From the human T2T-CHM13v2.0 reference genome, Homo sapiens, in the NCBI RefSeq assembly GCF_009914755.1, contig NC_060927.1: a stretch of DNA of 64,000 nt, one strand, 5' to 3'. The position numbers were made by a program, and so were the translations under genes. The notes beneath the pieces were generated by a model that had not been told where the DNA came from, did no database searches, and saw nothing but the letters and a program-made list of their open reading frames with translations. Below, in pieces: positions 1 to 54,879 of the stretch. The first letter of the stretch is position 1. Each line of letters starts with the position of its first letter.

Positions 1-1599
1 GCAGGGGAACTCTGTTCACAGGGACATGGCCCCTGGGGTGAAAGAGGTCTCACTCTGACTCGCACTCAGTCCCAAACCAGGCTGTGACAAGGAATAAACA
101 GGGATTCTCAGGGAAGAAGAGAGACATTCTTCAGGCTTTTCTACCTGAAAGGGTAAGCTTCATCCTAGAAAAGGCTAGAAAATGTGATGGACTCAATCAA
201 CAGATCTTCTAAAATCCAAGGACATTTGCTTTCTACCACAAAGAAAAATGAGGGTGGAATTTTTCTTCTCAAATGTGCCTAAGCCACTATTTGGAAAGGA
301 AGTTTGATATTTGCAACTACGGTTTTCTCAATAATCAGTTAGCAACAATTTTAAAAATCAAGAATTGAGACAGAAATAAACAGTCAGAAATGAGCTTGGT
401 ACATCACAGTTGAAGTCAACACTGTGACAGTAAAATAGTTAATCCTGGGTTCACAGCTGTGGGATAATTCAGAAAAAAAAAATGTTTTTTCTATTTTTCT
501 ATTTGCTGAGTGCTAAAGACTAGGTTCTCTCTCTAATCCCAGGCCACTTTATCCTAATAAATAAGGAAGTTGTGCTTATTAACAGGAGCTTAATAAGATT
601 GCAGCCCCTTTAAATATCCTGAAGACACTGGCGGCTCTCCTCTCCAGCAGCAAACTGTGGTGGGCATCTTAAGGTCATTTCCTGTCCTGTCCTTGACCAC
701 TGGCTGCAGCCTGTGGACATGGCTGACCAGGGCACAGGGCCACAAGACTCATCTTTCTTCCAGCACGTGGATATGAGGGCAGCATCATTTCGCAGAAAAG
801 CAAATACAATTTTGTTTTATTTTGTCTAATATGGTTCTGGCACAACACAAGCTGTCCCTATTCTAAGGCTGGAGAATTTGATTTCCTCTCTGGCCTGTGG
901 AAATGGGCTCAGCATATAGCCCTATTTAATCACAGAATGTTAACACTAATCTGACTAAGATGGCTGACTTGAGGTGCTCCCCAGGCTGCAGCAAACAGTG
1001 CTAATCCTTCTAGCTGAACCTGGGCCCAACTTCAGAGAACAGAGCGGTTGGCTGTTTAATCACTCATGAAGGCATGACTGATTGAAACCATCATATACTT
1101 CCCCAGCTCAAAATGCATATGATTTTTTTCACTGGGAGGAAAAAACACATTACTATTTTGACAGTTGGCACCAGAATCCCACTGAGGGGAGAGAACAGTG
1201 AGTTCTAGCAACAGTAATGTACATTCATTCTGATACTCCTTTCAGTGCCATTTTCAACCCTCCACTCCATTATCTCTAAATGCTCAGTAAAAGTCTAGTA
1301 TCCTAGTATCCTGAAGCCTTGGGGAATGAAGGCAAAGATGGTGTGAGAGAGGAGAGCCCCTGCAGATGCTGGAAGAAATGGTAGAAGCCAAGAAACAGCA
1401 AAGAAACAGGTGGCAGTGTGGGCAAACTCGGAAATGCAGACACAGGAGAAAGCTTGCTGACAGGGGCAGGGAATGGGGAAACAGCCAAAAGGGGTAGACT
1501 GCCTTGGTTCTGATATATGAAAAGGGCTTTCCAAGTGGTAGACATTTGAATTCAATGAATATTTTGCCCAAGACATCTGCAATGATAACTCATATGTAA

Positions 1600-3440
<1,841 letters not shown>

Positions 3441-3452
3441 TATCTTGATTAA

Positions 3453-5245
3453 ATTTTTAATAATAGCTTTATTAGGATACAATTCACATACCATAAAGTT
3501 CGCTTTTAAAAAAATGTATAATTCAATGGTATTTAGTATATTCACAGGGATGTGCATTGATCACTGCTATCTAATTCCAGAAGATTTTAATCACTCCAAA
3601 GGGAAACCACGTATCTATTAGCAATCATTCCCCATTTCCTCCTTGCCCTAGCCTCTGGCAACTACTAATCTATTTCCTGTCTCTATGAATTTGCCTATCC
3701 TGGAGATTTCATATAAATGAAGTCATACTGCTATGCATGATTCATACATGTGGCCATTTATGTCTGGCTTCTTTCACTTAACATAATTATTTCAATGTTT
3801 ATCTATGCTGTAGAATATTACTAAACTTACTTTTATGGCAAAATAATATTTCATTTTATGACTGTCACATTTTGTTTATCCATTCTTCAGTTGATGGACA
3901 TTGGGTTGTTTCTGCTTTTAGGTTATTATGAATAATACTGCTATGAATATTTGTGTACAAGTTTTTCTTAGCCATGTTTTTAATTCTGTTGGGTATATAT
4001 GTAGGACATAGATATACATACTTAAATCTATTCCTATATATACCTGGAAGTAATGGGTCGTATGATAACTCTATAACATTTTGAGGAACTGCTAAATTTT
4101 CCAAACTTGCAAAGTGGGTATACTATTTCATATTCCCGCCAACAATTTATGAGGATCCCAATTTCTCCACACCTTCACTAAGACTTCTTGTTTTAATTAC
4201 AGCCATCTCAGTGACTATGAAGTTATTTCTCATTGTAGTTTTAATTTTTATTTCCCAAATGACTAATGATGTTGAGCATCTTTTCAGGTGCCTGTTGACT
4301 ATTTACTTCTGTTTTCTTCTGAGAGCTTTGTAGTTCTAGCTCTTATATTTATGTCTATAACCTACATTTATTTATTTTTGTATATGGAATGAGGTGGGGG
4401 GTCTATCTTTTTTTTTTTTTTTTGTATATGGCCATCCTGTTTTCCCAGTATCAAGCATTGAAAAGATGATTCTTCCCCTGCCCCTTGAGTGGTCTTGGTA
4501 CCCATGTCAAAAATCAGTTGATCATAGATGCATAGGTTTATTTATGAACTCTCCATTCTACTTCATTGATCTATGTATCTGTCCTTATGCCAGTACTACA
4601 TAATCTTGATGACTATATCTTTGTAGTAAGTTTTGAAATCAAGAAGTGTGAGTTCTCAAATTTGTTCTTTTTTTTTCAATATTGTTTTGACTATTCTGAG
4701 TGCCTTGCAACTTCATAAGAATTTTCTAATCAGTTCTTCAATTTCTAAATGAACTCAGCTGGGTTTCTGATAGGGATTGAATTGAATCTGCAGATCAATT
4801 TGGGAAGTGTTGCCATATTAACAATATTAACTCTTCTGATTCATGAGCAGGAATTGTCTTTTTACTTATTTCAGGTTTCTTTAATTTCTTTCATGTATGT
4901 TTTGTCATTTTTAGAATACAAGTCTTGCACTTGTTTTGTTCAATTTATTGCTAAGTAATTCACTTTTTGATACTATCGTAAATCAAAATTTAACTTCATT
5001 TTCAGATTGATTTTTATGTACATAAGTCACTTGGTTTTTGTATATTGATTGTGTATTCTGCAACCTTGATAAACTCATTTATTTGTTCTAATTTTTTTGT
5101 ATTTATTAGAATTTTGTATACATAAGATCATGCCATGGAGATTGTTTTATTTTTTTCTTTCCAATTGGAATTCTTTTTATTTCTTTTCTTGCCTAACTGC
5201 CCTTGCGACAACCTCCAGAATAATGTTGAATAGGAGTGGTTAGTG
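3453..5245 (-). mobile_element. L1MB-like 3' end and ORF2 fragment
   Basis: Antisense L1MB-type 3'UTR 'agctttatt...caattcacataccataaa...ctctggcaactactaatcta', followed by ORF2 C-terminal remnant. Confidence 0.8.
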
Positions 5246-14800: not shown

Positions 14801-15649
14801 TATCTTATATAAGCATTGCCACTCCTACTCTTTTTTGATTTCCACTAGCATAAAATATTTTTCCATTGCTTTATTTTCCGTCTACTTGTGTCTATATAGG
14901 TAACATGTTGTTTTTGTAGACTGTTCAGTCTTATTTTTTATCCATTTGGTCATTTTATGTCTTTGATTGGTGAGTTTAGTCCAACTACATTCAATGTTAT
15001 TATTGAAAATAAAAACTTACTCCTGCCATTTTCTTATTTGTTTTCTGGTTGGGGTCTTCACTTCCTTCTTCCTTTTGTTCTTATCATCCTTTAAACAAAG
15101 GCAATTTTCTCTGGTGGTATGCTTTAATTTCTTGCTTTTTATGTTTTGTGCATTCATTGTATGCTTTTTGATTTGAGATTATTGTGAGGCTTAAAATAAT
15201 ATCTTATAATCTATTATTTTAAACTGATGACAACTTAACACTAATCACATAAACAAACACAGCAGCTAGCAAACAAGCAAAGATAAAACTAATAAAAAAC
15301 TCTACACTTTATCTTTATCCCCCTGCATTTTAAATTTTTGTTGTTTCTATTTATATCTTGCTGTACTATGTATGTCTTGAAAAGTTGTTGTAGTAATTAT
15401 TTTTGATCAGTTCATCTTTTAGTCTTTCTACACAAGATATGAGTAGGTTATGCACCACAATTATGGTGTTATAATATTCTGTGTTTCTCTGAGTACTTAC
15501 TATTACCAGTGAGTTTTGTACCTTCAGATGATTTCTTTTTGCTCATTAACATCAATTTCTTTCAGATTTAAACCTTTCTTTAGCATTTCTGCATTTCTTG
15601 TTCTGGTGTTGATGAAATCCCATAGCTTTTGTGTGTCTCGAAAGTCTTT

Positions 15650-17522
15650 CTCCCTCTCCCTCTCCCTCTCCCCACGGTCTCCCTCTCATGCGGAACCGAA
15701 GCTGGACTGTACTGCTGCCATCTCGGCTCACTGCAACCTCCCTGCCTGATTCTCCTGCCTCAGTCTGTCGAATGCCTGCGATTGCAGGCACGCGCCGCCA
15801 CGCCTGACTGGTTTTGGTGGAGACGGGGTTTCGCTGTGTTGGCCGGGCCGGTCTCCAGCCCCTAACCGCGAGTGATCCGCCAACCTCGGCCTCCCGAGGT
15901 GCCAGGATTGCAGACGGAGTCTCGTTCACTCAGTGCTCAATGGTGCCCAGGCTGGAGTGCAGTGGCGTGATCTCGGCTCACTACAACCTACACCTCCCAG
16001 CCGCCTGCCTTGGCCTCCCAAAGTGCCGAGATTGCAGCCTCTGCCCGGCTGCCACCCCGTCTGGGAAGTGAGGAGTGTCTCTGCCTGGCCGCCCATTGTC
16101 TGGGATGTGAGGAGCCCCTCTGCCTGGCTGCCCAGTCTGGAAAGTGAGGAGCGTCTCCGCCCGGCTGCCATCCCATCTAGGAAGTGAGGAGCGCCTCTTC
16201 CCAGCCGCGATCACATCTAGGAAGTGAGGAGCGTCTCTGCCCGGCCGCCCATCGTCTGAGATGTGGGGAGCGCCTCTGCCCCACCGCCCCATCTGGGATG
16301 TGAGGAGCGCCTCTGCCCGGCCGAGACCCCGTCTGGGAGGTGAGGAGCGTCTCTGCCCGGCCGCCCCGTCTGAGAAGTGAGGAGACCCTCTGCCTGGCAA
16401 CCACCCTGTCTGAGAAGTGAGGAGCCCCTCCGCCCGGCAGCTGCCCCATCTGAGAAGTGAGGAGCCTCTCCGCCCAGCAGCCACCCCATCTGGGAAGTGA
16501 GGAGCGTCTCCGCCCGGCAGCCACCCCGTCCGGGAGGGAGGTCGGGGGGGGGGTCAGCCCCCCGCCCGGCCAGCCGCCCCATCCGGGAGGGAGGTGGGGG
16601 GTCAGCTCCCCCGCCCGGCCAGCCGTGCCGTCCAGGAGGGAGGTGGGGGGGTCAGCCCCCCGCCTGGCCAGCCGCCCCGTCCGGGAGGGAGGTGGGGGGG
16701 GTCAGCCCTCCGCCCGGCCAGCCGCCCCATCTGAGGTGAGGGGCGCCTCAGCCCTCCGCCCGGCCAGCCGCCCTGTCTGGGAGGTGAGGGGCGCCTCTGC
16801 CCAGCCGCCCCTACTGGGAAGTGAGGAGCCCCTCTGCCCGGCCAGCCGCCCCATCCGGGAGGGAGGTGGGGGGGTCAGCCCCCCTGCCCGGCCAGCCGCC
16901 CCGTCCGGGAGGTGAGGGGCGCCTCTGCCCGGCCGCCCCTACTGGGAAGTGAGGAGCCCCTCTGCCCGGCCACCACCCCGTCTGGGAGGTGTGCCCAACA
17001 GCTCATTGAGAACGGGCCAGGATGACAATGGCGGCTTTGTGGAATAGAAAGGCGGGAAAGGTGGGGAAAAGATTGAGAAATTGGATGGTTGCCGTGTCTG
17101 TGTAGAAAGAAGTAGACATGGGAGACTTTTCATTTTGTTCTGCACTAAGAAAAATTCCTCTGCCTTGGGATCCTGTTGATCTGTGACCTTACCCCCAACC
17201 CTGTGCTCTCTGAAACATGTGCTGTGTCCACTCAGGGTTAAATGGATTAAGGGTGGTGCAAGATGTGCTTTGTTAAACAGATGCTTGAAGGCAGCATGCT
17301 CATTAAGAGTCATCACCAATCCCTAATCTCAAGTACCCAGGGACACAAACACTGCGGAAGGCCGCAGGGTCCTCTGCCTAGGAAAACCAGAGACCTTTGT
17401 TCACTTGTTTATCTGCTGACCTTCCCTCCACTATTGTCCCATGACCCTGCCAAATCCCCCTCTGTGAGAAACACCCAAGAATTATCAATAAAAAAATAAA
17501 TTAAAAAAAAAAAAAAAAAAAA
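15650..17522 (+). mobile_element. SVA retrotransposon (SVA_D-like)
   Basis: Short (CCCTCT)n head, Alu-like region, VNTR, SINE-R, AATAAA and poly(A); perfect TSD gaaagtcttt at 15640-15649 and 17523-17532. Confidence 0.97.
16040..16990 (+). repeat. SVA VNTR (GC-rich units of about 37-50 bp, G-quadruplex-prone)
   Basis: Repeated 'gtgaggagcgtctctgcccggcc' and 'gggagggaggtggggggg tcagccccc' units. Confidence 0.95.
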
Positions 17523-17588
17523 GAAAGTCTTTATTTATCCTTCATGTTTAAAGGATGTTTTCATCAGGTATTCTATTCTAGGGTTTAA

Positions 17589-44064: not shown

Positions 44065-44262
44065 TTTACTGTGACTGTATTTGGCAGATATAATCAATGT
44101 TAATCCCTTTCCACAGTTTTACCTTTCTTGCAGAATCTCCAAGATTCTCTTTATGAATTAATAACAATCTTACACATTTGAAAAAGACTAATTTTGAAGT
44201 CAAAGCTAACTAGAGAGCAGGTATATGTATTTTGAACTAATCTCTTGGCCAAGAAACTTTCC
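44065..44262 (+). repeat. Inverted repeat arm B (partner 45213-45409)
   Basis: 198 bp; reverse complement of the partner with 3 substitutions and 1 indel. Confidence 0.97.
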
Positions 44263-44644: not shown

Positions 44645-44779
44645 GTAGCCTCACTCTAATCCACTCCTTCTTTAATTTTCATCACCCCTCACATTGTATC
44701 TTTTTATTTGAACCTTTTCATTTCTGAAAATCTTCGACCTTTTTTTTTCATATTATCATTCTCCTATTCTTTCATTTCT

Positions 44780-45152
<373 letters not shown>

Positions 45153-45212: not shown

Positions 45213-45409
45213 GGAAAGTTTCTTGGCCAAGAGATTAGTTCAAAATACATATACCTGCTCTCTAGTTAGCTTTGACTTCAAAATTAGTCTTTTCAAATGT
45301 GTAAGATTGTTATTAATTCATAAAGAGAATCTTGGAGATTCTGCAAGAAAGGTAAAACTATGGAAAGGGATTAACATTGATTATATCTGCCAAATCTAGT
45401 CACAGTAAA
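45213..45409 (-). repeat. Inverted repeat arm B', inserted in a MIR
   Basis: Reverse complement of 44065-44262; flanked by agtaacacagtta at 45195-45207 and 45409-45421. Confidence 0.95.
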
Positions 45410-51978: not shown

Positions 51979-52586
51979 CACACATACATATATTACCTTA
52001 TACCAGAAACAGCTGTTTCTGGTATATTAAACAATATATTGTTTAATGTTGCATTGTTTTGAGTTTTGTACAAATGGAGTCATGCTCTTTGCACTTTTTC
52101 AATTTTTTAAAAAATGTATTATATTCGTGAGAGTAATCCATGTTAATGACTATCACTGTAGTTTATTCATTTTTACTGCTGTTTAGAATTTCAGTGTATA
52201 AGTGTGCCAAAATTTATTTATCTGTTCTTCTGTCAGTGGAGCAGTTGGTATTTGTGGTTTCCTGCTGTTATAAAAAATGTTATCAATATTTTTGTATGAT
52301 TCTTTGGCACATGTACAAAAGTCTCTAGGGAATTATACCTAGGAGTAAAAAACATTTATGCTTATTAGACAATGCAAAATGGATTTCCAAAGTGATTTTA
52401 CCCATTTAAACTTGTTCATTAGTGTAAGAGAGAGCTCAGCTAAGCACATCCTTGCCAACAGTTGAATCATTGCCAAATTGTTGCAGTTTCAATTCGATTA
52501 CCAATGAGTATATGCTTCTTCTCTTTGTCCATTCATATTTTTTTCTCCATGTAATGCTTGTGAATATCTTTTGCCCATTGCTTTTC

Positions 52587-54100
52587 TTTTTTTTTTTTTT
52601 TTTTTTTTTTTTATTGATCATTCTTGGGTGTTTCTCGCAGAGGGGGATTTGGCAGGGTCATAGGACAATAGTGGAGGGAAGGTCAGCAGATAAACAAGTG
52701 AACAAAGGTCCCTGGTTTTCCCAGGCAGAGGACCCTGCGGCCTTCCGCAGTGTTTGTGTCCCTGGGTACTTGAGATTAGGGAGTGGTGACGACTCCCAAC
52801 GAGCATGTTGCCTTCAAGCATCTGTTTAACAAAGCACATCTTGTACCGCCCTTAATCCATTTAACCCTGAGTGGACACAGCACATGCTTCAGAGAGCACA
52901 GGGTTGGGGGTAAGGTCATAGATCAACAGGATCCCAAGGCAGAAGAACCTTTCCCAGTACAGAACAAAATGAAAAGTCTCCCATGTCTACCTCTCTCCAC
53001 ACAGACACAGCAACCATCCGATTTCTCAATCTTTTCCCCACCTTTCCCCCTTTTCTATTCCACAAAACCGCCATTGTCATCATGGCCTGCTCTCAATGAG
53101 CTGTTGGGTACACCTCCCAGACGGGGTGGTGGCTGGGCAGAGGGGCTCCTCACTTCCCAGTAGGGGCAGCCGGGCAGAGGCACTCCTCACCTCCCAGACA
53201 GGGCGGCTGGCCGGGCGGGGGCGACCCCCCACCTCCCTCCCGGACGGGGCGGCTGGCCAGGCGGGGGCTGACCCCCACCTCCCTCCCGGACGGGGCGGCT
53301 GGCTTGGTGGAGACGCTCCTCACTTCCCAGACGGGGTGGCTGCCGGGCGGAGGGTCTCCTCACTTCTCAGACGGGGCAGCGGGGCAGAGGTGCTCCCCAC
53401 ATCTCAGACGATGGGCGGCCGGGCAGAGACGCTCCTCACTTCCTAGATGGGATGGCGGCCGGGAAGAGGCGCTCCTCACTTCCTAGATGGGATGGCGGCC
53501 GGGCAGAGACGCTCCTCACTTTCCAGACTGGGCAGCCAGGCAGAGGGGCTCCTCACATCCCAGATGATGGGCAGCCAGGCAGAGACGCTCCTCACTTCCC
53601 AGATGGGGTGGCAGCCGGGCAGAGGCTGCAATCTCGGCACTTTGGGAGGCCAAGGCAGGCGGCTGGGAGGTGGAGGTTGTAGCGAGCCGAGATCACACCA
53701 CTGCACTCCAGCCTGGGCACCATTGAGCACTGAGTGAACCAGACTCCGTCTGCAATCCCGGCACCTCGGGAGGCCAAGGCTGGCAGATCACTCGCAGCTA
53801 GGAGCTGGAGACCAGCCCGGCCAACACAGCGAAACCCCGTCTCCACCAAAAAATCCGAAAACCAGTCAGGCGTGGTGGCGCGCGCCTGCAATGGCAGGCA
53901 CTGGGCAGGCTGAGGCAGGAGAATCAGGCAGGGAGGTTGCAGTGAGCCGAGATGGCAGCAGTACAGTCCAGCTTCGGCTCGGCATCAGAGGGAGACCGTG
54001 GAAAGAGAGGGAGAGGGAGACCGTGGAAAGAGAGGGAGAGGGAGACCATGGGGAGAGGGAGAGGGAGACCGTGGGGAGAGGGAGAGGGAGAGGGAGAGAG
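52587..54100 (-). mobile_element. SVA retrotransposon (C/D-like) carrying an A>G hypermutated SINE-R
   Basis: poly(T), SINE-R, short VNTR, Alu-like region, (AGAGGG)n head; TSD gcccattgcttttc (52573-52586) / gcccattgtttttc (54101-54114). Confidence 0.97.
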
Positions 54101-54879
54101 GCCCATTGTTTTTCAAGTGGGAGGTTTCTATTTTTCTTTCAATAGGAATGCTATATATTCTGGATACTAATCTTTTGCATTTACATTGCTGTAACTATCA
54201 TCTTCCAATTTGTGGCTTATTTCACTTTTAGGTTGTTTTTATGAACAGTGCTTCTTAATTTAATGTAATTGAATTTATCATTTTTTCTTTCACCTTTTGT
54301 GGTTTTTTTGCTAAGAAACCTTTCTTAAGAATAGTTATAAAGACATTCTCCTATAATTTCTTCTAAATTCTTAAAAGTTTTTCCTATCACATTTAAATCT
54401 TCAAGGCATTTGCAATTGATTTTTGTGTATGATTTGAGTACAGATTCAAATTAATTTTTTCCACATGGATAACCAGTTGCCTCAATACTGTTATAGAATA
54501 GTCTGCCCTTTCTCCTACCAATACACAGTACCATCTGTCAATTATCAAGGTCCCGGGTATGCATGAGTCTGCTTCTGAGCTCTGTTCTGTACTGTTTGTC
54601 TTCCCTGCCATTATCAACTATCTCAATTATTCCAGCCAAGTATTAAACTTTGGGAGCAGATAGGGTGAGCCTCCCTTCTGTGTTCTTTTTCTTCTGAGGT
54701 ATTGACTGTTTCCAGCTCTTTGCTTGTCCACATAACTTATAAGAATCAACTAGCCAAGTTGTGCATTTGCGACACACACATACACCTATTGAGATTTTTT
54801 ATTAGAACTGCGGTGAATTTGGACAGAGCTGACATTCCAACAATATTGAGCCTTCCTATCTGTATGAACACAGGAGAGA

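What the first reader, a model, noticed from the sequence alone, without database searches (positions are those of the whole stretch)
52700..53095. SVA SINE-R carries a strand-specific A>G cluster: candidate ADAR-hyperedited RNA fixed in the genome by retrotransposition
Seen: compared with the other SVA in this window (17000-17500) and the SVA/LTR5 consensus as I recall it, this copy has T>C on the plus strand (A>G in SVA sense) at 52711, 52722, 52790, 52796, 52797, 52887, 52948, 52949, 52954, 52955, 52995, 52998 and 53090. That is 13 sites in 380 bp, plus 53798 and possibly 52991. Examples in sense: ctaagaaaaatt>ctgggaaaggtt, ttaagagt>ttgggagt, cctagg>cctggg, gtagaaag>gtggagag. The 5' neighbours are A x7, U x4, C x1 and G x1, and three are adjacent AA>GG pairs. 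Established: ADAR deaminates clustered As in dsRNA, prefers 5' U/A and avoids 5' G, and inosine is reverse-transcribed as G. APOBEC3 gives G>A and CpG decay gives C>T, so neither fits; GC-biased conversion is not strand- or transition-specific. Other differences between the two SVAs exist but look like subfamily or CpG changes. Inference: an edited SVA transcript (this copy or its source element) was inserted by L1 ORF2p, making RNA editing heritable.
Basis: partly seen in the sequence, partly recalled or inferred. Interest (0 to 1): 0.85.

Follow-up and report, generated by a model that had tools for sequence, protein, structure and literature searches.

The report
SVA copy bearing RNA-editing scars
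One SVA retrotransposon in the first intron of CASR carries a one-strand cluster of A-to-G changes that looks like ADAR editing of its RNA copied into DNA when it inserted, so an RNA edit became a heritable mutation.

Summary
The minus-strand SVA at 52587-54101 has a poly(A) tail and a 13-bp target-site duplication. Its 497-nt SINE-R differs from the majority state of its 29 nearest genomic relatives at 17 sites: 14 A>G in SVA sense, 3 G>A and nothing else.

- **A is ancestral.** It is the state at 13 of the 14 sites in 12 of 12 HERV-K(HML-2) copies.
- **No sibling.** No other copy scored in this genome exceeds 96% identity.
- **Neighbours fit ADAR.** The 5' neighbour is A or U at 12 of 14 sites, against 53 of 120 unedited adenosines, p=0.004.
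- **The Alu-like part looks ordinary.** Its changes are mostly at CpG sites.
- **Sites recur.** Other SVA copies on different sequence backbones carry overlapping A>G sets, and one such variant spread to four loci.

Best reading (about 0.8): an ADAR-hyperedited SVA RNA was reverse-transcribed by L1. Two or three sites (52991, 52998, perhaps 52790) may be inherited variants. No dsRNA partner was found, and ape orthologues and raw reads could not be checked. Nine literature searches found no report of this for SVA.

The parts
52587..54101 (-). Full SVA element ('SVA2'). In sense order: CCCTCT-type hexamer region, Alu-like region, VNTR, SINE-R, poly(A).
   Evidence: Sequence read. BLAST to other SVA loci covers all parts.
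52574..52586 (.). Target-site duplication, copy next to the poly(A): cccattgcttttc.
   Evidence: Read directly. It matches the other copy at 12 of 13 bases.
54102..54114 (.). Target-site duplication, copy next to the SVA 5' end: cccattgtttttc.
   Evidence: Read directly.
52587..52615 (-). AATAAA signal (52610-52615) and a poly(A) tail of about 26 nt (T-run on the plus strand, 52587-52612).
52614..53110 (-). SINE-R as aligned (497 nt). This is 'col 1-497' in the analysis, with col i = window 53111-i.
   Evidence: Gap-free alignment to 38 other SVA copies. Cols 13-400 and 401-497 match HERV-K(HML-2) env-3'/LTR in two blocks.
52711..53090 (-). The A>G cluster: 14 sites at 53090, 52998, 52995, 52991, 52955, 52954, 52949, 52948, 52887, 52797, 52796, 52790, 52722 and 52711. 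52991 and 52998, and perhaps 52790, may be inherited variants.
52948..52955 (-). Four-site hot spot: sense ctAAgaaaAAtt becomes ctGGgaaaGGtt. The same state recurs in 9 other SVA loci on two other sequence backbones.
   Evidence: In one search, 2041 genomic matches to the R-degenerate 21-mer, and 96 of the first 100 listed are unedited.
53111..53599 (-). VNTR (69 A in sense). The changes could not be polarised here.
53600..53990 (-). Alu-like region. Across the whole 5' part aligned (53600-54104), private substitutions are C>T 9, C>G 3, T>C 2, G>C 2, G>A 2, T>G 1 and only 1 A>G (53798, shared by 4 of 23 copies). Those called within 53604-53903 lie mostly at CpG sites.
   Evidence: One search shows that no other scored copy shares these changes (best 96%).

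Best explanation
A full-length SVA transcript from a common, younger-looking SVA backbone was deaminated by an ADAR enzyme at about 11-14 adenosines in its SINE-R while that stretch was base-paired with a complementary RNA. L1 ORF2p then reverse-transcribed the edited RNA at a nicked target site and read each inosine as G. The insertion, antisense in CASR intron 1, therefore carries the edits as permanent A>G changes on the SVA sense strand.

Shown here: the strand-specific pure A>G cluster, ancestral A, no sibling copy, the L1-type insertion hallmarks, the neighbour bias, and recurrence of the same sites in other SVA lineages.

Inferred: the enzyme, the double-stranded partner (probably an antisense SVA or HERV-K LTR transcript in trans), and that editing hit the very RNA molecule that inserted rather than a lost source copy.
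For: 1. **Spectrum.** 17 differences from the majority state of the 29 nearest copies: 14 A>G, 3 G>A, none of the other ten types. Sign test for 14:0 against T>C gives p=1.2e-4. 14 of 17 against a background of 26 of 133 gives p=4e-8.
2. **Polarity.** A in 12 of 12 HERV-K(HML-2) copies at 13 of 14 sites. A in SVA1 at all 14. The five 3'-most sites (52797, 52796, 52790, 52722, 52711) are A in all 9 motif-selected copies.
3. **Private to this copy.** The 39 scored non-self SINE-R matches are all at 96% identity. A 61-nt probe over 52761-52821 finds nothing above 95%. A 191-nt Alu-like probe finds nothing above 96%.
4. **Retrotransposition hallmarks.** A poly(A) tail of about 26 nt after AATAAA, and a 13-bp target-site duplication matching at 12 of 13 bases.
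5. **Neighbours, SVA2 alone.** 5' A/U at 12 of 14 sites against 53 of 120 unedited A, p=0.004.
6. **Neighbours, pooled.** Over 35 unique A>G sites from SVA2 and four other A>G-rich lineages, the share of adenosines changed by 5' base is U 44%, A 40%, C 13%, G 11% (5' G depletion p=0.009). By 3' base it is G 40%, C 29%, A 27%, U 7%. All 4 UAG triplets in the SINE-R are hit in some lineage. The ADAR order (5' U about equal to A, then C, then G; 3' G favoured) is recalled textbook knowledge.
7. **Ordinary spectrum elsewhere.** The 5' part of the same element shows 9 C>T, 2 G>A, 6 transversions, 2 T>C and 1 A>G.
8. **Recurrence.** Outside the hot spot, 6 of SVA2's 10 sites are also A>G in other lineages (hypergeometric p=0.0055). 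Lineage-specific backbone markers lie interleaved with the shared sites.
9. **Precedent.** ADAR-linked A-to-G hyperediting fixed through reverse transcription is reported for the retroviruses RAV-1, ALV and HTLV-2/STLV-3 (passage in PMC8586724).
Against: - **No double-stranded substrate found.** No inverted repeat inside SVA2 involves the SINE-R. The self-fold of the unedited SINE-R puts the edited adenosines only slightly more often in pairs (mean pair probability 0.58 against 0.41).
- **Neighbour tests in SVA2 alone are partly weak.** 5' G depletion is not significant (1 of 14 against 37 of 120, p=0.11), nor is 3' G enrichment (6 of 14 against 24 of 120, p=0.08).
- **The 5' A/U preference is not unique to ADAR.** It is also the polymerase-eta WA motif.
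- **Confinement to the SINE-R is only marginal.** 14 of 135 A against 1 of 53 A in the Alu-like part gives p=0.07. No site among the 22 adenosines of cols 401-497 gives p=0.07.
- **Some sites may be inherited.** 52991 and 52998 are G in 9 and 6 of 33 unselected copies. 52790 sits in a CpG context and is G in 9 of 51 copies of a biased sample.
- **The pooled site list was ascertained and hand-curated.** The four other lineages include copies found through the hot-spot motif, and I removed presumed subfamily markers by hand.
- **Contrary cell-culture result.** Over-expressed ADAR1 left L1 RNA unedited and restricted L1 without its catalytic domain (passages in PMC5224506).
- **Not checked.** Raw reads and ape orthologues.
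Confidence: 0.8

Rival explanations
1. The Gs were inherited or copied. They would be variants of an SVA sub-lineage, or were brought in by gene conversion or template switching from another SVA copy that already carried them.
For: - The four-site hot-spot state exists in 9 other loci.
- L034 shares 7 of SVA2's 14 sites, and L032/L033 share 6.
- 52991 and 52998 are common variants, G in 9 and 6 of 33 unselected copies.
- Four loci with independent flanks inherit one A>G set, so such variants can spread.
Against: - SVA2 has none of the backbone markers of those copies: cols 36, 83, 92, 96, the 136-137 deletion and 181, or cols 29, 44 and 62. These markers lie interleaved with the shared A>G sites, so a single conversion tract cannot explain the pattern.
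- The donors also carry A>G at cols 55 and 58, which SVA2 lacks.
- Five sites (52797, 52796, 52790, 52722, 52711) are A in all 9 motif-selected copies. No 61-nt match shares the trio 52797/52796/52790.
- The best scored genome-wide identity is 96%.
- This rival would only move the origin of the Gs to another copy. It would not explain the pure A>G spectrum.
Confidence: 0.07
2. Polymerase error rather than deamination. L1 ORF2p, or a repair polymerase such as pol eta at WA motifs during insertion, produced clustered A>G changes on one strand.
For: 12 of 14 sites have a 5' A or T, which is the WA motif. The changes date to the insertion or earlier, because no sibling shares them.
Against: - All 14 changes at A are A>G, with no A>T or A>C. 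By recalled knowledge, pol eta errors at A:T pairs are only about half transitions.
- The pooled sites show a 3' preference (G 40%, U 7%) that the WA motif does not predict.
- The same adenosines recur in independent lineages (p=0.0055) and all 4 UAG triplets are hit. This fits a substrate-specific enzyme better than random misincorporation.
- The Alu-like part of the same cDNA shows no such errors.
Confidence: 0.06
3. Mutation of the DNA after insertion: transcription-associated strand asymmetry, GC-biased gene conversion, or chance.
For: The element is not brand new. Its 5' part carries many private changes, mostly at CpG sites, so there has been time for mutation.
Against: - 14 of 135 adenosines changed, against 3 of the other 362 positions.
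- 14 A>G against 0 T>C (p=1.2e-4). GC-biased conversion would give both types.
- On the CASR coding (plus) strand the changes read T>C. By recalled knowledge, transcription-associated asymmetry favours A>G on the coding strand, which is the opposite direction, and that bias is well under two-fold.
- Unselected copies average 0.79 private A>G.
Confidence: 0.04
4. Assembly or polishing artefact in T2T-CHM13.
For: Nothing positive. Raw reads could not be inspected.
Against: The flanks, target-site duplication, VNTR and Alu-like part are coherent. A collapse or chimera with another SVA would import that copy's backbone markers, and none are seen. Errors confined to 14 adenosines of one strand are not a known assembly failure mode (inference).
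Confidence: 0.02

Closest known systems
ADAR A-to-G hypermutation of retroviral genomes (RAV-1, avian leukosis virus, HTLV-2/STLV-3)
   Same: Clustered one-strand A>G changes that become DNA because a reverse transcriptase reads inosine as G, with a 5' A/U bias (review passage in PMC8586724).
   Different: Here the template is a non-autonomous, non-LTR composite retrotransposon mobilised in trans by L1. The event sits in the inherited genome, not in cultured infected cells.
APOBEC3 G-to-A hypermutation footprints in endogenous retroelements (HERV-K, IAP, Alu and others)
   Same: An innate-immune deaminase leaves a clustered, strand-specific mutation signature that is fixed when the retroelement integrates (passages in PMC2873906).
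   Different: The enzyme, substrate and direction are opposite: C>U on minus-strand cDNA gives G>A in a GG/GA context. SVA2 has only 3 G>A, one of them at a CpG.
ADAR hyper-editing of inverted-repeat Alu RNA in human transcripts
   Same: The enzyme, the clustering, the neighbour preferences and a retroelement-derived substrate.
   Different: That editing is transcript-level and not inherited. The Goodier 2016 review says a role for ADAR editing in Alu subfamily evolution 'has not yet been determined' (passage in PMC4982230).
ADAR1 restriction of LINE-1
   Same: ADAR1 meets the L1 ribonucleoprotein that also mobilises SVA.
   Different: In that study no editing of L1 RNA was detected and restriction did not need the catalytic domain (passages in PMC5224506). 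SVA2 shows the editing outcome that the study did not see.

Membership tests
SVA retrotransposon inserted by L1 (target-primed reverse transcription) | Composite structure: hexamer repeat, Alu-like region, VNTR, SINE-R | tested here: met
   All four parts align to other SVA loci.
SVA retrotransposon inserted by L1 (target-primed reverse transcription) | Poly(A) tail after AATAAA, and a flanking target-site duplication | tested here: met
   The T-run is at 52587-52612. The 13-bp duplication is at 52574-52586 and 54102-54114 and matches at 12 of 13 bases.
ADAR hyper-editing footprint | Only A>G, on one strand (the RNA sense strand) | tested here: met
   14 A>G, 0 T>C, 0 A>C, 0 A>T; sign test p=1.2e-4.
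ADAR hyper-editing footprint | The unedited state (A) is ancestral | tested here: met
   A in 12 of 12 HERV-K(HML-2) copies at 13 of 14 sites. The 14th (52711) lies at the SVA deletion junction and is uninformative. A in 28-29 of the 29 nearest copies at 13 sites and in 20 of 29 at 52991.
ADAR hyper-editing footprint | 5' neighbour preference U about equal to A, then C, then G | tested here: met
   SVA2: 5' A/U at 12 of 14 against 53 of 120, p=0.004. 5' G at 1 of 14 against 37 of 120, p=0.11. Pooled 35 sites: U 44%, A 40%, C 13%, G 11%, with 5' G depletion p=0.009. The reference order is recalled.
ADAR hyper-editing footprint | 3' neighbour preference (G favoured, U disfavoured) | tested here: inconclusive
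   SVA2: 3' G at 6 of 14 against 24 of 120, p=0.08. Pooled: G 40%, U 7%, p=0.06 for G.
ADAR hyper-editing footprint | A long double-stranded RNA substrate covering the edited stretch | tested here: inconclusive
   No inverted repeat within SVA2 involves the SINE-R and the self-fold is not decisive. A partner in trans, or one at the unknown source locus, cannot be tested.
ADAR hyper-editing footprint | Inosine or A-to-G mismatches seen in SVA RNA at the same adenosines | not testable with these tools
APOBEC3 hypermutation footprint | Clustered G>A (sense) in a GG/GA context | tested here: not met
   only 3 G>A (53088 at a CpG, 52844, 52808), against 14 A>G.

The most novel reading that the evidence does not exclude
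ADAR hyper-editing of SVA RNA before L1-mediated insertion is recurrent, not a one-off. It hits reproducible adenosines in the SINE-R: the ctAAgaaaAAtt hot spot and every UAG. It has marked several independent insertions on three different SVA backbones. At least one edited variant stayed mobile and seeded four or more loci. ADAR would then be a real mutational driver of diversification in a hominid-specific retrotransposon, and the genome would hold a fossil record of germline dsRNA editing.
Probability: 0.5. Interest if true: 0.75.

Novelty: new variant of a known kind. Interest (0 to 1): 0.65.

Why it matters
RNA editing is normally treated as transient and not inherited. A germline retrotransposon copy that preserves an ADAR editing pattern shows a direct route from an RNA modification to a heritable DNA change.

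It also gives a concrete, countable way to ask whether ADAR has shaped retroelement families. The Goodier 2016 review stated that question was still undetermined (PMC4982230 passage). The recurring hot spots predict which SVA adenosines should be edited in germline or pluripotent-cell RNA. They also imply that SVA SINE-R RNA is double-stranded there, which bears on how young retroelements are seen by dsRNA sensors.

For CASR itself nothing functional is implied. The element is an antisense intronic insertion.

Tried and rejected
- **Ancestral G.** Rejected. 12 of 12 HERV-K(HML-2) copies, SVA1 and the nearest 29 SVA copies have A.
- **Sibling or parent search.** Nothing found with the whole SINE-R, with 61-nt probes over 52761-52821 and 52961-53021, or with a 191-nt Alu-like probe. 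No non-self match exceeded 96% for the long probes. The second 61-nt probe gave 98% only to L034, which has a different backbone. Each search scored only 40 candidates of 57 to 3836, so a sibling could have been missed.
- **Intramolecular dsRNA.** The SINE-R self-fold and an inverted-repeat scan of the element gave no clear substrate. The local window has no inverted SINE-R partner within 24 kb apart from unrelated Alu pairs. SVA1 is inverted relative to SVA2 but lies 35 kb away and is irrelevant to pre-insertion editing.
- **APOBEC3, CpG decay, GC-biased conversion, transcription-associated asymmetry.** All rejected on spectrum and strand.
- **Templated mutation.** The edited hot-spot word GGGAAAGGT equals a 9-mer about 90 nt upstream in the same SINE-R (visible). 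I set this aside because the flanks share no homology, the region is purine-rich so a chance match is plausible, and it would not explain the other 10 sites.
- **Unselected control panel.** Of the 40, 33 were full-length SINE-R. The 7 dropped were L089, L092, L094, L105, L116, L122 and L126, which are LTR-like or truncated.
- **Literature.** Nine full-text searches found no report of ADAR-edited SVA, or of any human non-LTR element, fixed in the genome. Carmi et al. 2011 (Nat Commun) is not held. Knisbacher and Levanon 2015 (Ann N Y Acad Sci) I saw only as a citation and did not look up. Either could bear on novelty.
Full report
**What is there.** The window holds two SVA retrotransposons. SVA1 lies on the plus strand at about 15642-17530. 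SVA2 lies on the minus strand at 52587-54101. SVA2 is complete. In sense order it has a CCCTCT-type hexamer region, an Alu-like region, a short VNTR, a 497-nt SINE-R, AATAAA and a poly(A) tail of about 26 nt. It is bracketed by a 13-bp target-site duplication, cccattgcttttc at 52574-52586 and cccattgtttttc at 54102-54114, which match at 12 of 13 bases. By the supplied annotation it sits antisense in CASR intron 1. These are the hallmarks of an L1-mediated insertion.

**Checking the observation.** To polarise them I took the 29 best non-self genomic matches to the SVA2 SINE-R. The search scored 40 of 2134 candidates, and all 39 non-self matches are at 96% identity. I compared SVA2 column by column with the majority state of those 29 copies.

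- SVA2 differs at 17 of 497 positions: 14 A>G in SVA sense and 3 G>A. None of the other ten substitution types occurs.
- The A>G sites are window 53090, 52998, 52995, 52991, 52955, 52954, 52949, 52948, 52887, 52797, 52796, 52790, 52722 and 52711.
- The G>A sites are 53088 (a CpG), 52844 and 52808.
- The three AA>GG pairs and the four quoted word changes are real.

**A panel that was not selected on SVA2.** The 29-copy panel was chosen for similarity to SVA2, so I built a second one. The R-degenerate 21-mer around the hot spot has 2041 genomic matches. I fetched the first 40 in coordinate order. Of the 40, 33 are full-length SINE-Rs. The 7 dropped copies are LTR-like or truncated.

- Against these 33, SVA2 has 7 strictly private A>G and 1 private G>A.
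- The controls average 0.79 private A>G, with a maximum of 6.
- Their pooled private spectrum is 26 A>G, 18 T>C, 15 C>T, 14 G>A and 60 transversions, 133 in all.

The panel also shows that G at 52991 (9 of 33) and at 52998 (6 of 33) are common variants. 52790 sits in a CpG context and is G in 9 of 51 copies of a sample biased towards it. A conservative count is therefore 11-12 edits rather than 14.

Statistics:

| Test | Result |
|---|---|
| 14 A>G against 0 T>C, sign test | p=1.2e-4 |
| 11 against 0 (conservative set), sign test | p=1e-3 |
| 14 of 17 substitutions A>G, against background 26 of 133 | p=4e-8 |
| 7 or more private A>G, against a mean of 0.79 (Poisson) | p=2e-5 |

**Are the Gs ancestral?** No. 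I located 12 HERV-K(HML-2) copies through the Pfam family PF13804 (HERV-K_env_2) and extended them into the LTR. SINE-R cols 13-400 and 401-497 align to them in two blocks. At 13 of the 14 sites all 12 copies have A. The 14th, 52711, falls exactly at the SVA-specific deletion junction and is uninformative. SVA1, which has a different backbone, has A at all 14.

**Is it a lineage?** SVA2 has no sibling among the copies scored.

- The best scored SINE-R identity is 96%.
- A 61-nt probe over the trio 52797/52796/52790 finds nothing above 95%.
- A 191-nt probe over the private changes in the Alu-like part finds nothing above 96%.

Each search scored only 40 candidates, so this is strong but not exhaustive. 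The editing therefore belongs to the RNA molecule that made this insertion, or to a source that left no other copy in this genome.

**The rest of the element.** Against 23 panel copies, the 5' part of SVA2 (53600-54104 as aligned) has C>T 9, C>G 3, T>C 2, G>C 2, G>A 2, T>G 1 and a single A>G. That A>G is 53798, and 4 of 23 copies already carry G there. The substitutions called within the Alu-like stretch lie mostly at CpG sites, which is an ordinary ageing spectrum and shows the insertion is not brand new. The contrast with the SINE-R (14 of 135 A against 1 of 53 A) is only marginal, p=0.07. The VNTR could not be polarised.

**Does it look like ADAR?**

- In SVA2 the 5' neighbours are A 8, U 4, C 1 and G 1. 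That is 12 of 14 A/U, against 53 of 120 for unedited adenosines (p=0.004).
- 5' G depletion (1 of 14 against 37 of 120, p=0.11) and 3' G enrichment (6 of 14 against 24 of 120, p=0.08) are trends only.
- Pooling 35 unique A>G sites from SVA2 and four other A>G-rich lineages gives, by 5' base, U 44%, A 40%, C 13% and G 11% of adenosines changed (5' G depletion p=0.009).
- The same pool gives, by 3' base, G 40%, C 29%, A 27% and U 7%.
- All four UAG triplets in the SINE-R are hit in some lineage, two of them in SVA2.

This order is the ADAR preference as I recall it from the literature. The pooled list was partly ascertained through the hot-spot motif, and I removed presumed subfamily markers by hand.

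**Recurrence.** All are SVAs.

- L032 and L033 are segmental duplicates. The other loci have unrelated flanks.
- Eight of the loci share an older backbone: cols 36, 83, 92, 96, a 2-nt deletion at 136-137, and col 181. That backbone makes up 11 of the 33 unselected copies, and it is normally unedited at the hot spot (10 of those 11).
- L034 has a third backbone, like that of SVA1.
- The same adenosines are therefore G on three different backbones, with lineage markers interleaved between them. This argues against a conversion tract and for repeated hits at preferred sites.
- Outside the hot spot, 6 of SVA2's 10 sites recur in other lineages (p=0.0055).
- L035, L036, L037 and L039 have independent flanks and share one A>G set: cols 156, 157, 160 or 161, 162, 163, 200, 222, 223 and 224. 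An A>G-rich variant evidently remained mobile.
- In the unselected panel, L099 has 6 private changes, all A>G, plus one shared with SVA2.

**What is missing.** ADAR needs double-stranded RNA, and I found no partner. There is no inverted repeat involving the SINE-R inside the element. The self-fold is only weakly suggestive, with mean pair probability 0.58 for edited against 0.41 for other adenosines. The edits span cols 21-400, which is the block that aligns contiguously to HERV-K env-3'/LTR. An antisense LTR5 or SVA transcript is therefore a natural candidate, but the absence of edits in cols 401-497 is not significant (p=0.07). That idea is inference only. Raw reads and ape orthologues were not available.

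**Rivals.**

- *APOBEC3 (G>A), CpG decay and GC-biased conversion.* These fail on type and strand.
- *Transcription-associated asymmetry.* It is far too weak. Relative to CASR it also points the wrong way, because the changes read T>C on the CASR coding strand.
- *Polymerase error at WA motifs.* It shares the 5' A/U bias. It does not predict pure transitions, the 3' bias, the UAG hits or the recurrence.
- *Inheritance or conversion from other G-bearing copies.* Backbone markers, and five sites that are A in all nine motif-selected copies, argue against it.

**Known or new.** ADAR-linked A-to-G hyperediting that becomes DNA through reverse transcription is reported for RAV-1, avian leukosis virus and HTLV-2/STLV-3 (passage in PMC8586724). 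APOBEC3 G>A footprints in endogenous retroelements are well described (passages in PMC2873906). For human non-LTR elements, the Goodier 2016 review says a role for ADAR editing in Alu evolution 'has not yet been determined' (passage in PMC4982230). Orecchini et al. saw no editing of L1 RNA (passages in PMC5224506).

Nine full-text searches found no report of an ADAR-edited SVA fixed in the genome. Carmi et al. 2011 is not held. Knisbacher and Levanon 2015 I saw only as a citation. Prior mention elsewhere therefore cannot be excluded.

**Verdict.** The mechanism is a textbook combination, so this is a new variant of a known kind rather than a new category. It is still a clean, countable example of an RNA edit becoming heritable, and it appears to be one of several in the SVA family.

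Noticed in passing
L099 (G000:C1:12770574-12771394): An SVA from the unselected panel whose 6 private SINE-R changes are all A>G (cols 223, 250, 284, 298, 360 and one more), plus col 314 shared with SVA2. It is likely a second hyperedited insertion.
   Followed up: partly
L035, L036, L037, L039 (chr1, chr3, chr4, chr17 of G000): Four SVA insertions with unrelated flanks share one A>G set (cols 156, 157, 160 or 161, 162, 163, 200, 222, 223, 224) on an older backbone. This looks like an A>G-rich source variant that stayed mobile.
   Followed up: partly
L034 (G000:C16, around 86305855) and L032/L033 (G000:C15): These copies share 8 A>G sites (cols 21, 55, 58, 116, 156, 157, 162, 163) despite different backbones, with the lineage markers interleaved between the shared sites.
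   Followed up: partly
window 44065-44262 and 45213-45409: A 98-100% complementary inverted repeat of about 200 nt. Its arms lie about 950 nt apart and enclose an Alu (44767-45107). It is unusually well preserved for an old transposon end. The origin was not examined.
   Followed up: no
window 15640-15649 and about 17523-17532: SVA1 (plus strand) is flanked by its own target-site duplication, gaaagtcttt. It has a different SINE-R backbone from SVA2 and an ordinary mixed substitution spectrum: 3 A>G and 5 T>C among 16 substitutions and 6 indels.
   Followed up: partly
window 52946-52954 (minus strand), compared with SINE-R cols 63-71: The edited hot-spot word GGGAAAGGT is identical to a 9-mer about 90 nt upstream in the same SINE-R (visible). 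I judged this a coincidence in a purine-rich region.
   Followed up: partly
genome-wide (one search list, chr1): Among the first 100 matches to the hot-spot 21-mer, 2 carry only the downstream AA>GG pair (C1:33218242 and C1:71256756), 1 carries a single upstream G and 1 a single downstream G. Partial hot-spot states therefore exist.
   Followed up: partly
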